Source: Candidatus Adlerbacteria bacterium
GTDB lineage: Bacteria; Patescibacteriota; Minisyncoccia; Phycocordibacterales; SBAW01
Reading direction: 5' to 3'
DNA length: 64,000 nt
NCBI GenBank assembly: GCA_037135035.1
Contig: JBAXLB010000002.1
Location: 4,993 to 68,992, forward strand
In this document: positions 9,195 to 14,357 of the stretch, one piece after another
How positions within the stretch are numbered: position 1 is the first letter of the stretch
Layout: each line of letters starts with the position of its first letter
Notes under the pieces: model-generated
What the model was told of the DNA's origin: nothing
The model's database searches: none
What the model saw: the letters and a program-made list of their open reading frames with translations, nothing else
Position numbers and translations under genes: made by a program

Positions 9195-9253
9195 ACCCAC
9201 GCACCGGCGCAACCGTACAGGTTGCCGCAATGACAGTGCCTAAGTTCCAGGCT
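9194..9253 (+). repeat. 60-bp duplicate of the hup 3' coding end (8280..8339). It differs only by synonymous changes and stays in frame to a stop
   Basis: Direct repeat with 57/60 identity. The two mismatches in the coding part are synonymous (CCG>CCA, ACT>ACC). It fills exactly the spacer between the NYN stop and the convergent hydroxylase stop. Confidence 0.8.
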
Positions 9254-9977
9254 ACAGCATGAAGATTTTTGCTAAAAATGGATTTCTTTCAATTAGCCTG
9301 AGGAACTCATCTCTATCCATCTCGTCATACAAACCTTGGAAGCAGAATTCAAAAAGGTGGAGTTTTACTCGCTGTATAAAAGATAGTCTGCTTTTTGGCA
9401 AAATATCAAAAATCACATGCACCCGCAACGCGTCGGAAAGGTTTTTTACCGAATGTTGCTTTTTATTATCAAACCACCACAACTCTCCTTCTTTCAAGAC
9501 CGTACGCTCATCTCCGGAAGAAAATTCTGAACCGTTCGGTGATACAAGCACCAAGTGATACCTATTAGTCCTTGCATAATAGGCTCCTCCATCTATGTGT
9601 GGCAGTACTTCCCCTTCTGCTCGTAGCCCCACAATTGCAATTCTACGCACAATACTGTTCTCTTGATCTGCAAATTTTTTAAGAAACGTATACAGTGCTG
9701 GAAATGAAGAAATCAGGGGTGTTGTGTACACAAGTAATGAGTTCCAGGTATACACATCCTTCCCTTCTAGGGTAATTGGGAGGTTGCTCTTGAGCGAATA
9801 CCAGGCGCTATGCCCGTGTATACCTGTACTATTTTTATCCACACGTGACAGTACGTCGAATTTAACTTTTCCGTCGTCTATAGCCTTTTGTAATTCAGCA
9901 ATAAATATCTCTGTGTCCGGAGAGGGGCATTGTCTAAAGTTCTGCATGTATAACAAGTATACTTCGTGCGCATGCAT
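9252..9977 (-). CDS. cupin-type hydroxylase, aspartyl/asparaginyl beta-hydroxylase-like
   Basis: 241 aa. HxD (HIDGG), WWFDN and H..KN motifs resemble the AspH/LpxO cupin family. Divergent from the SagB/YcaO genes. Confidence 0.45.
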   Translation of the reverse strand: MHAHEVYLLYMQNFRQCPSPDTEIFIAELQKAIDDGKVKFDVLSRVDKNSTGIHGHSAWYSLKSNLPITLEGKDVYTWNSLLVYTTPLISSFPALYTFLKKFADQENSIVRRIAIVGLRAEGEVLPHIDGGAYYARTNRYHLVLVSPNGSEFSSGDERTVLKEGELWWFDNKKQHSVKNLSDALRVHVIFDILPKSRLSFIQRVKLHLFEFCFQGLYDEMDRDEFLRLIERNPFLAKIFML

Positions 9978-10020
9978 GCGTGAAATCAGATTTTAAGAGG
10001 CTCAAATTTAGTGCACATTT

Positions 10021-10054
10021 AAAAAGAAAAAGCCGCTCTTTGCGCAAAGAGCGG
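10021..10054 (-). terminator. intrinsic terminator (GCCGCTCTTT-gcgc-AAAGAGCGGC plus U-run on the minus strand)
   Basis: Perfect 10-bp stem starting 2 nt after the stop of the 47-aa ORF. Followed by UUUUUCUUUU on the minus strand. Confidence 0.75.
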
Positions 10055-10056
10055 CT

Positions 10057-10200
10057 TCTACACTACGACTCGGCCTCCTCCAAACCCTCTGCGTTGAGCA
10101 GAGGTATAGGATCCCCCCAAAGCAACAGGGGTTGAGGGGCTGCACAAGCAGTGACCCCTATCACCGCCAGCAGGCAAAACAAACGAGTAATGCTACGCAT
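10057..10200 (-). CDS. tiny putative lipoprotein/secreted peptide (47 aa; MRSITRLFCLLAVIGVTAC...)
   Basis: Below the ORF-track cutoff. SD GAGGGGA 6 nt before the ATG. Signal peptide with a lipobox-like VTAC. Immediate terminator. Confidence 0.4.
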
Positions 10201-10319
10201 TTGAGTCCCCTCAAAAATGCATTAGACAGTCCTATACCGACGGCACAGGTCCTTCTATTTGGCACAATAATACAAATTTGTTATTTTGTCTAACTTGTTG
10301 CCTGGAGGGGCTTTGGGCG

Positions 10320-12623: not shown

Positions 12624-12650
12624 AAAACAGAGAGTTGTTACAATGTACGT

Positions 12651-13013
12651 ATGGTACAAAAAGCTCGCAGAAAAACAGCACGTCTTTTTGGAAAAAGCAT
12701 GTTGCTTCTTACACAAATTGCTCTCTTCTTAGGTTTCGCGGTCCACACAAAACAAGGTTCGCTTATTGAAATATTTTCAACTCCTATAGCGAGTGCAGAT
12801 GCTCCAGCCGGTGGAGGAGCCGATGGAGTGCCTTATGACTCCGGAGGTGCAGGCTCTTCAGGATCCGCTGGCGGCGGCACAGCTTGTGGTTGTTGCGCCG
12901 GCAACAATAGCAGTGACAGTGATGGAAACTCTAGCAGCGGCGCTAACGGTGAAGGAGCCGCTGCTGGTGACAGCGGTGGAGGCAATGGTGGAGGTGGAGG
13001 AGGTGGTAAATAA
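12651..13013 (+). CDS. candidate TOMM precursor peptide (hydrophobic leader plus Gly/Ser/Cys/Asp-rich core ending in a poly-Gly tail)
   Basis: Lies 27 nt after the ycaO stop. Core GSSGSAGGGTACGCCAGNNSSDSDGNSSSGANGEG...GGGGGGGK contains the TACGCC Cys cluster. The true start may be the internal Met at 12699 (MLLLTQIALFLGF...). A low-complexity overlapping frame at 12793 was rejected. Confidence 0.4.
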   Translation: MVQKARRKTARLFGKSMLLLTQIALFLGFAVHTKQGSLIEIFSTPIASADAPAGGGADGVPYDSGGAGSSGSAGGGTACGCCAGNNSSDSDGNSSSGANGEGAAAGDSGGGNGGGGGGGK

Positions 13014-13021
13014 TAAAAACT

Positions 13022-14317
13022 ATGTTCGATCCTACTCCAAAAAAGAAAATATTTTATACCGTTAGCATTTTATTAGTCATTTGTGCAGCTGTAGGGGGAT
13101 ACTACTATCTGCACGTTGTACTCCCTGCGTCTAAAATTGGCGCTACTGATATACAGAAACTTATAGCAACCAACCAAAGCTCTCAATTACATATAATCGC
13201 AGACAGCGACCCAGCTACCGTGGGGCACGATAATTGGATATTAGCCAATTTATTTGTTGCAGACGAGCCGTTTTTAAGCTCTTCAATTAACCCAAACAAG
13301 GACGCTCGCACACTCCAGGAAGTTAATGCTTCCGACTCTGCAGGGCTTGCAAACGTTGCCAAAGTACTCACTCTAGACAATAAAAACCCAACTACCGCAG
13401 ATGTACTTGCTTGGGTTGTCTTGGCCGAAAAACTGCGTCGCGTTGGTGTGGGCACAGATGCATTTGTTACCTACGTACTGCCAAATAATCCAGGCATTGC
13501 CGCCGTTGCGGCTGCATATCAAAAAACTCTTGCGGGGCATGGTATGGACATACACTCTCCTAAAATTAAGCAAGATGCAATATTGTATTTTGTTGGAAGG
13601 CAGTTAGAAGTGCTTTACGCAACAATTGTGCACAATCCAGCATATTCCGAGGGCCTAAAACAAGATATGGTCCAAACAATATCTCTATATGGTTTGCTTG
13701 ATTCAGGAACGTTAAATAGTGATCCAAATTTTTCTTCCTACAGAAACGAGGCATCTAAACTCTTTAATACTAGTATCTCAGGTTCGCCTGATGGTCTTGA
13801 TATAGTCCCTGAATATAAATTACTTATAAAAAACACATACTTTACGAGTATCTATTCGGTTAAAAAGTCATGGAATCTTGGTCTTGTATATTTTTGGCAG
13901 CAAAACCACACTGTAGGCAAAGACTTTGCAGCACAAAACACTGTCCCCTTCGACCTTGTACGTAACACAACCCTTAACGCTATTACCCAAATCGACATCT
14001 TGTCTGCAAACGCAAGTACAACATCTGAATTAGGCTCATTTAATGCAAATGTTTTGCGTATTTCGCTAGCCCTAACAACTGCGTTTGCGGTAAGTAAAAA
14101 AGACTCCCAATTATCTGAAAAAGATGCAGCGGCACTTGTTACAGACCTATTCGCTCCAATTGTAAAACTGTACGCACAAAACCCTCAAAATAGATTTTTT
14201 ACATTCCTCCGTGCCTATAAAAACATTCGTTCACCGCAGGAAGTTACTGCTCTAAAAAACCTTGTTGCTTCAAAAAATAAACCTGTATCTCAGTTCCTTC
14301 TAGAACTTAGTTGGTAA
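13022..14317 (+). CDS. membrane-anchored extracytoplasmic protein of unknown function (last gene of the RiPP island)
   Basis: 431 aa. One N-terminal TM helix. No recognisable catalytic motif. A strong bidirectional terminator follows. Confidence 0.55.
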   Translation: MFDPTPKKKIFYTVSILLVICAAVGGYYYLHVVLPASKIGATDIQKLIATNQSSQLHIIADSDPATVGHDNWILANLFVADEPFLSSSINPNKDARTLQEVNASDSAGLANVAKVLTLDNKNPTTADVLAWVVLAEKLRRVGVGTDAFVTYVLPNNPGIAAVAAAYQKTLAGHGMDIHSPKIKQDAILYFVGRQLEVLYATIVHNPAYSEGLKQDMVQTISLYGLLDSGTLNSDPNFSSYRNEASKLFNTSISGSPDGLDIVPEYKLLIKNTYFTSIYSVKKSWNLGLVYFWQQNHTVGKDFAAQNTVPFDLVRNTTLNAITQIDILSANASTTSELGSFNANVLRISLALTTAFAVSKKDSQLSEKDAAALVTDLFAPIVKLYAQNPQNRFFTFLRAYKNIRSPQEVTALKNLVASKNKPVSQFLLELSW

Positions 14318-14320
14318 ATA

Positions 14321-14357
14321 AAAAAAAGGGGGGTTGCGCGAACGCAACCCCCCCCCG
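14321..14357. terminator. bidirectional intrinsic terminator (A-run, GGGGGGTTGCG-cgaa-CGCAACCCCCC)
   Basis: 11-bp GC stem with A-run and C/T-rich flanks. It lies between convergent genes. Confidence 0.8.

What the first reader, a model, noticed from the sequence alone, without database searches (positions are those of the whole stretch)
9252..14357. Compact TOMM-type RiPP island in a reduced genome
Read directly from the sequence:
- A SagB-like dehydrogenase (10320..11087) is translationally coupled to a YcaO cyclodehydratase (11091..12623). The YcaO ends in a PxPxP tail.
- 27 nt after the ycaO stop there is a 120-aa ORF. Its C-terminal core is almost only Gly/Ser/Cys/Asp/Asn/Ala (…GGTACGCCAGNNSSDSDGNSSSGANGEG…GGGGGGGK).
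- Divergently upstream sit an AspH-like cupin hydroxylase and a 47-aa lipoprotein-like ORF with a perfect terminator.
- Downstream is a 431-aa membrane-anchored protein and a strong bidirectional terminator.

Established knowledge: YcaO plus SagB with a Cys/Ser/Thr-rich core is the thiazole/oxazole-modified microcin (TOMM) logic. The hydroxylase could add a second tailoring step on Asp/Asn in the core.

Unusual points, by inference: no ThiF/E1-like docking protein is present, though the ~100-aa N-terminal extension on YcaO might substitute. No ABC exporter or leader peptidase is present. The leader looks like a signal/TM segment rather than an NHLP or Nif11 leader. A product class of this kind has not, to my knowledge, been characterised in an ultra-small-genome lineage.
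Basis: partly seen in the sequence, partly recalled or inferred. Interest (0 to 1): 0.85.

Follow-up and report, generated by a model that had tools for sequence, protein, structure and literature searches.

The report
Azole-peptide gene cluster with signal-anchor leader
A tiny-genome (CPR, Adlerbacteria-like) bacterium carries a conserved gene set predicted to turn a glycine-rich secreted peptide into a thiazole/oxazole-decorated product; such clusters were already noted in these bacteria, but the membrane-targeting leader and its helical-repeat partner protein do not appear in the papers I could search.

Summary
The window (Ca. Adlerbacteria-like CPR genome) encodes an AspH-like oxygenase, a SagB-type dehydrogenase, a YcaO ending in PHPFP, a 120-aa ORF and a 431-aa membrane-anchored protein.

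The 120-aa ORF is real. The same design recurs next to related YcaOs in 9 of 9 close loci and 17 of 41 more distant ones: a K/R-rich N-terminus, a TM segment, an A-x-A|D junction and an acidic Gly/Ser/Thr/Cys tail. It gave 0 hits in 848 kb of controls. It is almost always followed by a TM-anchored helical protein of about 350-430 aa, which models as TPR-like in the window.

No E1/ThiF partner, RRE or ABC exporter was found.

Best reading: a linear azol(in)e peptide (LAP/TOMM-type) pathway. Its leader doubles as a Sec-type signal anchor, so the peptide would be modified in the cytoplasm, exported, and cut at A-x-A|D.

The locus is a vertically conserved neighbourhood, not a mobile island. The chemistry, export route and biological role are untested. 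Verdict: new variant of a known kind, moderate interest.

The parts
9252..9977 (-). AspH-like Fe(II)/2-oxoglutarate oxygenase (241 aa). Candidate tailoring enzyme, specific to this subclade.
   Evidence: PF05118, E 9.5e-15. PHID...QHS...R motifs align with the proline cis-4-hydroxylase 4p7w. Present beside the cluster in the window, L001 and L003-L007, including L005 where the backbone differs. Absent from the wider clade.
10063..10200 (-). 45-aa lipoprotein-like ORF (lipobox VTA|C). Membership of the system is uncertain.
   Evidence: ORF. Conserved in L001 (6307-6501), but there it lies on the other side of the AspH gene. Not seen in other loci.
10028..10059 (-). Intrinsic terminator after the lipoprotein-like ORF.
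   Evidence: 14-bp stem followed by a T-run.
10320..11087 (+). SagB-type FMN dehydrogenase (azoline to azole). The start may be at 10356.
   Evidence: TIGR03605 116.7 bits against a cutoff of 78.4. 'QKYGSRGYRY' aligns with McbC 'FKYRYRGYR'. Found beside most YcaOs of the clade.
11091..12623 (+). YcaO cyclodehydratase (510 aa) with no partner protein and a C-terminal PHPFP.
   Evidence: PF02624 147.5 bits. TIGR03604 162.6 bits, below the cutoff of 219.25. AF2 model pTM 0.83; Foldseek to LynD E 7.5e-20 and to McbD E 2.9e-11. GELLER motif invariant; E-x-x-Q-R-D.
12615..12644 (+). Promoter-like element: a -35-like TTTCCA overlapping the YcaO PFP codons, and an extended -10 TGTTACAAT. It lies 6 nt before the precursor ATG, so a leaderless mRNA is possible.
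   Evidence: Promoter scan. TTG(T/C)TACAAT + 6 nt + ATG is conserved in the window, L001, L004 and L006, while the 6-nt spacer varies. Function is inferred.
12651..12797 (+). Leader of the precursor (aa 1-49): K/R-rich N-terminus, TM or signal segment, then the FSTPIASA junction motif.
   Evidence: Hydropathy. The DNA is 92-98% identical to L001, against about 75% for the rest of the cluster. The architecture recurs in 26 loci.
12798..13013 (+). Core of the precursor (aa 50-120): acidic Gly/Ser/Cys/Asp/Asn-rich segment containing GGGTACGCC. Presumed substrate.
   Evidence: Composition and net charge of -6. Hypervariable relative to L001, at 23-68% nucleotide identity. No known family.
13022..14317 (+). 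Membrane-anchored (N-in, C-out inferred) all-alpha TPR-like partner protein (431 aa).
14325..14356 (.). GC-rich hairpin between the convergent genes. A canonical terminator on the minus strand only.
14383..14925 (-). 180-aa secreted protein. Membership uncertain.
   Evidence: Signal-like N-terminus. Homolog at the same position in L001. The proteins at this position in L003 and L005 show no detectable similarity to the window.
16646..17818 (+). Membrane-anchored Trypsin_2 serine protease. Either a candidate leader peptidase or simply a backbone neighbour.
   Evidence: PF13365. 53% identical to the L003 neighbour. Present only in the close subclade.

Best explanation
This is a linear azol(in)e-peptide (LAP/TOMM-type) maturation system of a CPR-wide, uncharacterised subfamily.

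Proposed mechanism:
1. The 120-aa product of 12651-13013 is the substrate.
2. In the cytoplasm, the partner-less YcaO uses ATP to cyclodehydrate Cys (and probably Ser/Thr) in the Gly-rich core to azolines.
3. The SagB-type FMN dehydrogenase oxidises the azolines to azoles.
4. In this subclade, the AspH-like 2OG oxygenase probably hydroxylates a core residue (Asp/Asn, possibly Pro).
5. The leader is not an NHLP/Nif11/SagA-type leader. It is a K/R-rich N-terminus plus a hydrophobic segment that acts as a Sec-type signal anchor, followed by a short conserved stretch ending in A-x-A|D.
6. Because these precursors are only 69-129 aa long, targeting would be post-translational, which leaves time for modification before export.
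7. After export the peptide is cut at A-x-A|D, either by signal peptidase I or by a nearby extracytoplasmic serine protease. This releases an acidic azole peptide of about 70 residues.
8. The released peptide is bound, handled or neutralised by the co-encoded membrane-anchored TPR-like protein.

Shown here: the gene identities, the motifs, the conserved precursor and partner architecture, and the co-occurrence with this YcaO clade.

Inferred: the chemistry, the order of steps, Sec export, the cleavage site and the role of the partner.

The biological role is unresolved. My ranking is antagonism/competition, then surface or host interaction, then metal binding.
For: Enzymes:
- YcaO domain matched nearly full length, with the best NCBIfam hit TOMM_cyclo_SagD. 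A clade member, P0007, passes its cutoff at 222.7 bits.
- The YcaO fold is confirmed.
- The Mg/ATP motif GELLER is invariant and the C-terminal PHPFP is conserved.
- SagB passes its curated cutoff, and its Lys-Tyr motif aligns to McbC.

Substrate link:
- The precursor architecture occurs in 9 of 9 close loci and 17 of 41 wider-clade loci. It gave 0 hits in 40 weakly related YcaO loci and 0 hits in the reversed-sequence control.
- The precursor and partner pair stays with YcaO even when it is moved or inverted (L005, L007, L008, L010).
- The leader is conserved and the core hypervariable.

Export:
- Every precursor has a TM-like segment and an invariant A-x-A-D/E junction.
- There is no ABC exporter and no C39 peptidase nearby.
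- Bufferins are a precedent for Sec-signal RiPPs whose Cys residues become heterocycles (PMC11626156).

Partner:
- A TPR-like fold behind an N-in signal anchor, immediately downstream of the precursor in 17 loci, 18 precursor genes.
Against: - No E1-like or ThiF-like partner and no recognisable RRE was found. Most azoline-forming YcaOs need one (PMC7136475).
- The window's YcaO scores below the TIGR03604 trusted cutoff.
- The YcaO has Gln where LynD and TruD have the second Glu of E-x-x-E-R-D.
- The A-x-A site lies 16-30 residues after the hydrophobic segment. That is longer than a typical signal-peptide c-region, so cleavage by signal peptidase I is uncertain.
- Some clade members have Cys-free cores (L008, L010).
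- Homology between the 430-aa partners and the 350-400-aa partners is unproven.
- There are no expression or mass-spectrometry data.
- The A-x-A criterion was part of the scan pattern, so its invariance in the metagenome hits is partly by construction.
Confidence: 0.62

Rival explanations
1. Same enzymes and same substrate, but the product is not released. The modified Gly-rich protein stays tethered by its N-terminal TM helix. Together with the TPR-like partner it forms a surface-displayed module, for host attachment, an envelope role or metal binding, rather than a diffusible microcin.
For: - The hydrophobic segment is TM-like and lies far from the A-x-A site.
- The precursor and the partner both have N-in/C-out anchors and are always adjacent.
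- The locus is inherited vertically in a conserved backbone rather than sporadically like bacteriocin islands.
- The cores are uniformly acidic, at -2 to -10, with Asp/Cys/azole-type potential metal ligands.
- CPR bacteria are surface-attached episymbionts (established knowledge).
Against: - The invariant small-x-small|Asp junction is best explained as a cleavage site.
- Hypervariable cores are typical of released antagonistic peptides.
- There is no direct evidence for tethering.
Confidence: 0.2
2. The YcaO carries out a different YcaO reaction on this precursor (thioamidation, amidine formation, or ATP-dependent peptide-bond cleavage as in MusD). The nitroreductase-fold protein then has another role.
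For: - The YcaO lacks a partner, like the bottromycin YcaOs, and scores below the TOMM subfamily cutoff.
- MJ1094 (thioamidation) and MusD (peptidase) are among the closest solved structures.
- Cys-free cores exist in the clade.
- One survey read CPR YcaOs as thioamidation enzymes (PMC12153355).
Against: - No TfuA was found in the cluster or its flanks.
- TOMM_cyclo_SagD scores far above the McrA-thioamidation model (162.6 against 68.9 bits).
- A SagB dehydrogenase with the catalytic Lys-Tyr motif is tightly linked to the YcaO (3-nt gap) and co-occurs across the clade. It has no role without azolines.
- The PxPxP tail is retained.
Confidence: 0.1
3. The Gly-rich ORF and its TPR-like partner form an independent envelope gene pair that merely neighbours YcaO and SagB. 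The real substrate is encoded elsewhere.
For: - No binding domain for the leader was identified.
- The precursor is long and signal-bearing, unlike classic TOMM precursors.
- 24 of the 41 wider-clade loci showed no pattern hit.
Against: - The association survives rearrangements and deep divergence (YcaO 26-31% identity).
- Most loci without a hit are short contigs. 10-11 of the 19 loci of at least 8 kb have the pattern.
- The pattern gave no hit in controls.
- No other Cys/Ser/Thr-rich small ORF lies in the cluster.
Confidence: 0.07
4. The 120-aa frame is a compositional artefact of GC/GGN-rich DNA and is not translated.
For: Overlapping shadow ORFs occur in other frames (12793-13065 +, 12833-12985 -). 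There is no clear Shine-Dalgarno sequence.
Against: - The same frame and architecture is kept in many divergent loci, with different core DNA.
- The leader is more conserved than the neighbouring enzymes.
- A conserved promoter-like element sits 6 nt upstream.
- Gene callers predicted it in several genomes.
Confidence: 0.02

Closest known systems
Linear azol(in)e-containing peptide (LAP/TOMM) clusters, e.g. microcin B17 (McbABCD)
   Same: - YcaO cyclodehydratase plus SagB/McbC-type FMN dehydrogenase.
- An adjacent precursor with a conserved leader and a Gly-rich core bearing Ser/Cys. The composition resembles the McbA core (from memory).
- PxPxP tail on the YcaO, and the Lys-Tyr motif in the dehydrogenase.
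   Different: - No E1-like McbB/SagC or ThiF-like partner, and no RRE detected.
- No McbEFG-type export or immunity genes.
- The leader is a signal anchor with an A-x-A|D junction.
- The core is strongly acidic and much longer.
- A TPR-like membrane-anchored partner is present, plus an extra AspH-like oxygenase.
CPR LAP clusters reported by genome mining (Sharrar et al. 2020, PMC7298704)
   Same: YcaO next to a nitroreductase, with a precursor of about 84 aa beside the YcaO and a peptidase. Reported in Microgenomates and Parcubacteria genomes. The window's cluster is almost certainly one of this population.
   Different: That report is at cluster-type level only. The text I could read does not describe the signal-anchor leader, the A-x-A|D junction, the TPR-like partner, the missing E1/ThiF partner or the accessory genes.
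Bufferins (MNIO-modified RiPP metallophores, PMC11626156)
   Same: - Long precursors (80-120 aa) with an N-terminal Sec signal.
- Cys residues are converted to five-membered heterocycles in the cytoplasm.
- Export is by Sec and cleavage by signal peptidase.
- No dedicated transporter.
   Different: - The enzyme chemistry differs: an MNIO/DUF692 enzyme with a DUF2063 partner there, YcaO with SagB here.
- Bufferins fold as small proteins, whereas this core is low-complexity Gly-rich.
- The signal here has an unusually long spacer before A-x-A.
- Metal binding is untested here.
Standalone YcaOs of bottromycin biosynthesis
   Same: A YcaO that acts without an E1/ThiF partner can form a thiazoline (PMC7136475).
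   Different: Bottromycin uses a follower peptide, has no SagB-type dehydrogenase pairing of this kind, and makes a very different product.
RiPP hydroxylases such as cinnamycin CinX (from memory)
   Same: An Fe(II)/2OG oxygenase encoded in a RiPP cluster that hydroxylates Asp in the core peptide.
   Different: No detectable close relationship was tested. The closest solved relative here is a free-proline cis-4-hydroxylase. The substrate residue is unknown.

Membership tests
LAP / TOMM biosynthetic cluster | YcaO-domain cyclodehydratase (D protein) | tested here: met
   PF02624 147.5 bits against a cutoff of 25.7. The YcaO fold is recovered, with LynD at E 7.5e-20.
LAP / TOMM biosynthetic cluster | Membership of the curated TOMM SagD subfamily (TIGR03604 trusted cutoff) | tested here: not met
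   162.6 bits against a cutoff of 219.25. It is still the best NCBIfam hit and is matched end to end (4-377 of 377). Clade member P0007 passes at 222.7 bits.
LAP / TOMM biosynthetic cluster | C-terminal proline-rich PxPxP motif of azoline-forming YcaOs | tested here: met
   The protein ends PPHPFP. PHPFP is conserved in 8 of 9 clade members; the ninth is truncated.
LAP / TOMM biosynthetic cluster | SagB/McbC-type FMN dehydrogenase with the catalytic Lys-Tyr motif | tested here: met
   TIGR03605 116.7 bits against a cutoff of 78.4. The KY motif aligns with McbC FKY.
LAP / TOMM biosynthetic cluster | Leader-binding partner (E1-like C protein or Ocin-ThiF-like F protein, with an RRE), separate or fused | tested here: not met
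   No such hit in any ORF of the cluster or within +-10 kb. YcaO residues 1-130 and SagB residues 1-85 have no family hit at E<=10. The modelled N-terminus is low-confidence helices. A cryptic RRE cannot be excluded, as with AmiB.
LAP / TOMM biosynthetic cluster | Adjacent precursor with a conserved leader and a Cys/Ser/Thr-bearing core | tested here: met
LAP / TOMM biosynthetic cluster | Precursor belongs to a known TOMM precursor family (SagA, NHLP, Nif11, heterocycloanthracin and others) | tested here: not met
   No Pfam or NCBIfam hit at E<=10.
LAP / TOMM biosynthetic cluster | Azol(in)e rings actually installed on the peptide | not testable with these tools
   Needs mass spectrometry or NMR of the product.
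Sec-signal-peptide RiPPs (bufferin-like logic) | N-terminal Sec signal peptide with a signal-peptidase site | tested here: inconclusive
   A K/R n-region, a hydrophobic segment and an invariant A-x-A|D are present. The 16-30-aa spacer is atypical, and no SignalP-type predictor was available.
Sec-signal-peptide RiPPs (bufferin-like logic) | MNIO (DUF692) enzyme with a DUF2063 partner | tested here: not met
   No such domains in the cluster or its flanks. The resemblance is one of logic only; this is not a member of the bufferin family.
YcaO-TfuA thioamidation systems | TfuA partner adjacent to the YcaO | tested here: not met
   No TfuA hit. The McrA-type model scores only 68.9 bits against a cutoff of 365.
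Aspartyl/asparaginyl beta-hydroxylase family (PF05118) | Domain match and a 2-His-1-carboxylate iron site | tested here: met
   55.2 bits against a cutoff of 22.6. PHID and QHS align with the metal ligands of 4p7w. Substrate was not tested.
Type IV (class III signal) pilins | G|F/M-T/S-L-x-E prepilin cleavage motif | tested here: not met
   The N-termini lack the motif, with no Glu at +5 after any Gly (sequences).

The most novel reading that the evidence does not exclude
These CPR clusters would define a distinct RiPP class with three features:
- A partner-less YcaO recognises a short motif next to an A-x-A|D junction, without an RRE.
- The leader itself is a Sec signal anchor.
- The exported acidic peptide, decorated with azoles (and hydroxy-Asp), is captured by a co-evolving, membrane-anchored TPR receptor on the cell surface.

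The peptide would then serve as a metal-binding or host-interaction factor of an episymbiont, rather than as a classical microcin.
Probability: 0.3. Interest if true: 0.75.

Novelty: new variant of a known kind. Interest (0 to 1): 0.5.

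Why it matters
CPR/Patescibacteria have minimal genomes, yet they keep this four-gene module (YcaO, SagB, precursor, TPR-like partner) across deep divergence. That suggests a role important to their lifestyle.

If the model is right, three things follow:
- YcaO/azole chemistry would join the rare group of Sec-exported RiPPs.
- Azoline formation would be shown to work without an E1/ThiF/RRE partner on a long, signal-bearing substrate.
- Genome miners would gain a simple sequence signature (TM, then A-x-A|D, then an acidic Gly/Ser/Cys tail, then a TM-anchored helical protein) for finding precursors that gene callers often miss.

The system is small enough to test directly in E. 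coli.

Tried and rejected
- Word-based homolog search with the leader alignment recovered only three of the input precursors, so most are not called as genes.
- A profile search of 1.84 billion representative proteins with the 431-aa partner found only 4 clusters.
- hhalign between the 430-aa partners and the 350-400-aa partners matched only the TM helix. With more sequences it added a weak C-terminal 57-column match. Homology is left open.
- No PQQ-like propeller occurs anywhere in the window, although relatives have one.
- The proteins that sit at the position of the 180-aa ORF in L003 and L005 show no similarity to the window.
- Pfam and NCBIfam scans at E<=10 on the YcaO N-terminus, the SagB N-terminus and the precursor found nothing.
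- The afdb50 fold library was unavailable.
- The Chem Rev YcaO review is not held in the library. A search for PxPxP literature gave nothing useful.
- The Sharrar supplements hold no list of LAP clusters.
- Rejected: a type IV pilin reading (no prepilin motif).
- Rejected: a mobile island (normal GC content, conserved backbone).
- Rejected: a coding artefact.
- Rejected: the TPR-like partner as a cytoplasmic E1 substitute. Its short KKK-bearing N-tail places the domain outside the membrane.

Full report
**Source and observation**

The window comes from a CPR bacterium.
- The 431-aa protein is 100% identical to a Candidatus Adlerbacteria MAG protein.
- The closest locus, L001, is from a Lac Pavin Adlerbacteria MAG, with YcaO 69% identical.
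- GC content across the cluster (0.44-0.46) is close to that of most of the window (0.41-0.53).

- AspH-like oxygenase: PF05118, E 9.5e-15.
- SagB-type dehydrogenase: TIGR03605 scores 116.7 bits against a cutoff of 78.4.
- YcaO: PF02624 scores 147.5 bits. Its best NCBIfam hit is TOMM_cyclo_SagD, matched end to end, but at 162.6 bits it is below the trusted cutoff of 219.25.
- The YcaO ends PPHPFP.
- SagB and YcaO are 3 nt apart, and the 120-aa ORF starts 27 nt after the YcaO stop.

Small corrections:
- The lipoprotein-like ORF is 45 aa, not 47.
- The SagB start is ambiguous (10278, 10320 or 10356).
- The hairpin at 14325-14356 has a T-tract only on the minus strand.
- A Trypsin_2 protease lies at 16646-17818.

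**Is the 120-aa ORF real, and is it linked to the enzymes?**

In every locus carrying a related YcaO that I could fetch, there is an ORF with the same design. These are L001 and L003-L010, with YcaO identity running from 69% down to 26%. The design is:
- a K/R-rich N-terminus;
- a hydrophobic TM-like segment;
- a spacer of 16-30 residues ending in A-x-A;
- an invariant Asp;
- a tail rich in Gly/Ser/Thr/Cys/Asp, with net charge -2 to -10 and almost no basic residues.

The gene keeps company with YcaO even when it has moved.
- In L005 it lies beyond the AspH and propeller genes.
- In L007 and L010 it is divergent from SagB.
- In L008 it is on the other strand.

I then scanned metagenomes with the YcaO alignment, which gave 80 further loci. 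I searched all loci with a fixed pattern: a TM segment, then A-x-A-[DE], then a tail at least 60% G/S/T/C/D/N/A.

| Sequence set | Result |
|---|---|
| Close loci | 9 of 9 with a hit |
| Loci with YcaO relatives at E<1e-30 | 17 of 41 with a hit |
| The same group, contigs of at least 8 kb | 10-11 of 19 with a hit |
| Loci with only weak YcaO relatives (342 kb) | 0 of 40 |
| Reversed-sequence control (506 kb) | 0 hits |
| The 64-kb window | exactly 1 hit, the finding's ORF |

A looser search found variants with other small-x-small junctions in L032, L038 and L044.

One caveat applies. A-x-A-[DE] was part of the pattern, so its invariance among the metagenome hits is partly by construction. In the nine close loci the ORFs were found by position, not by pattern.

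Between the window and L001 the cluster averages about 75% nucleotide identity. The leader-coding DNA plus the 27-nt spacer is 92-98% identical. The core falls to 23-68%. L004 against L006 shows the same shape. A conserved leader with a hypervariable core is the classic precursor signature, so the 'compositional artefact' reading is rejected.

**Enzyme competence**

- The YcaO family alignment keeps the GELLER motif (E138, E141 and R142 invariant), E259/R263/D264 and the C-terminal PHPFP.
- One deviation: most members have Gln where LynD and TruD have the second Glu of ELVERD. From memory, that Glu is a Mg2+ ligand in E. coli YcaO. The consequence here is unknown.
- The AF2 model (pTM 0.83) matches LynD, TruD, the archaeal YcaOs, MusD and McbD.
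- SagB 'QKYGSRGYRY' aligns with McbC 'FKYRYRGYR', which carries the Lys-Tyr motif cited as catalytic for McbC in PMC8442711.
- The AspH-like protein retains PHID...QHS...R, aligned with the proline cis-4-hydroxylase 4p7w.

**What is missing**

- No E1-like or ThiF-like partner, no TfuA, no ABC transporter and no C39 peptidase. None was found in the cluster or within about 10 kb on either side.
- The roughly 125 residues that precede the recognised YcaO domain have no family hit, even at E<=10.
- In the model, residues 1-70 are low-confidence helices and residues 71-125 are a confident helix plus three strands.
- I cannot call this an RRE, and I cannot exclude a cryptic one. AmiB in streptamidine biosynthesis was recognisable only by structure prediction.
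- Reviews state that most LAP YcaOs need a partner, although the bottromycin YcaOs act alone.

**The partner protein**

- The gene immediately after the precursor encodes a TM-anchored protein of 350-430 aa. This holds for 18 precursor genes in 17 loci, and many of these proteins share a C-terminal F-x-x-F-L-x-x-x-G-W motif.
- The window's 431-aa version models as an all-alpha solenoid behind one N-terminal TM helix (pTM 0.75).
- Its short KKK-bearing N-tail implies an N-in, C-out topology, so the domain faces outward and cannot be the missing cytoplasmic docking protein (inference).
- The 430-aa subtype is extremely rare, with 4 clusters in 1.84 billion proteins.
- It is only weakly linked to the other partners, through the TM GxYY motif and the last 57 columns (hhalign probability 46%).

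**Accessory genes**

- AspH-like genes accompany only the close subclade: the window, L001 and L003-L007.
- A fusion of an orotate-PRTase-like domain with a PQQ-like beta-propeller is more widespread but absent from the window and L001. The same is true of a separate TPR protein.
- Trypsin_2, the M20 peptidase and the SAM methyltransferase look like conserved backbone neighbours.

**Mechanism**

The most economical model is a LAP-type pathway with Sec-type export.
- YcaO and SagB need ATP and FMN, so they act in the cytoplasm.
- The N-in topology puts the core outside once the peptide is inserted, so modification must come before translocation.
- That is plausible for precursors of 69-129 aa, and it is how bufferins work. 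Bufferins have a Sec signal, their Cys residues are converted to heterocycles in the cytoplasm, and they are cut by signal peptidase. The paper calls them 'rare examples' of such RiPPs.
- The invariant A-x-A|D is then the maturation site.
- The long spacer weakens a simple signal-peptidase reading. A dedicated protease, or a tethered uncleaved product, remain possible.
- The conserved stretch before A-x-A (for example FSTPIASA) is the likeliest recognition motif for the YcaO.

**Prior knowledge and verdict**

- Sharrar et al. (2020) described a YcaO / nitroreductase / peptidase LAP cluster with an 84-aa precursor in a Microgenomates genome. They found 110 more such clusters in 93 CPR genomes, 51 of them Parcubacteria.
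- Later surveys detect YcaO clusters in CPR with antiSMASH.
- The occurrence of this cluster type in an ultra-small genome is therefore known, though nothing has been characterised.
- I did not find any of the following described in the library: the signal-anchor leader with A-x-A|D, the obligatory TM-anchored helical partner, the partner-less YcaO in this context, and the accessory set.
- Verdict: a real, well-supported cluster; a new variant of a known kind; moderate interest.

Noticed in passing
window 12615-12650; L001, L004 and L006 just upstream of the precursor ATG: A conserved TTG(T/C)TACAAT (extended -10-like) sits exactly 6 variable nt before the precursor ATG. There is no room for a Shine-Dalgarno sequence. 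A -35-like TTTCCA overlaps the YcaO PFP codons. This suggests a dedicated promoter and a leaderless precursor mRNA.
   Followed up: partly
window 12618-12797 compared with L001: The leader-coding DNA is 92-98% identical between two genomes whose cluster averages about 75% and whose HU gene is 92% identical. There are only 3 synonymous changes in 55 codons. This points to a nucleotide-level constraint or to recent exchange of the leader.
   Followed up: partly
L003 12083-13723(-), L005 10057-11724(-), L008 1137-2777(+); also L013, L018, L022, L033, L035, L050: A cytoplasmic fusion of an orotate-phosphoribosyltransferase-like domain with a PQQ/BamB-like beta-propeller (about 550 aa) recurs in these YcaO clusters. 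It is often next to the AspH-like gene. It is absent from the window and L001. Its function is unknown.
   Followed up: partly
L005 11848-12171; L044 8425-8703: Some precursors carry Tyr-rich repeats (YYQG or SxYYGQ) between the A-x-A|D junction and the Gly/Cys tail.
   Followed up: no
L008 6928-7173(-); L010 4976-5284(-): These precursors are Cys-free, with cores made of Thr/Ser-Gly repeats, yet they sit beside YcaO and SagB. The product would contain only oxazol(in)es, or the chemistry differs.
   Followed up: no
L008 1-361 and 8001-9478; 3235-4917(-): The Kaiserbacteria locus has two YcaO genes, two SagB-like genes, a TPR protein and a 560-aa secreted protein with a Gly_rich_2 domain in the same neighbourhood.
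   Followed up: no
L009 356-2203: Upstream of the YcaO there is a 615-aa AMMECR1-domain fusion protein. No SagB is visible on the 7.6-kb contig. Two tandem partner-type genes (397 and 380 aa) follow the precursor.
   Followed up: no
L026, L028, L029, L041 (ORF after the precursor): In this subgroup the gene after the precursor encodes a protein of about 333 aa without a TM segment, ending AIYYPIFNLSPK, instead of the TM-anchored helical partner.
   Followed up: no
window 10063-10200(-) and 15092-16525(+): A 45-aa ORF with a good lipobox sits near an Lnt (apolipoprotein N-acyltransferase) homolog in a CPR genome. Relative to L001, the small ORF and the AspH gene have swapped order.
   Followed up: partly
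window 7215-7736 and 8520-9194; 851-1606, 6343-7077 and 24397-25161: Two NYN-domain (RNase-like) proteins flank the HU gene, and three TrmB-family regulators lie within 25 kb. The NYN genes are absent from the equivalent region of L001.
   Followed up: no
window YcaO residues 259-264 (about 11865-11882): The motif reads ELIQRD where LynD and TruD have ELVERD. Gln is found in most clade members, and Glu in P0006.
   Followed up: partly
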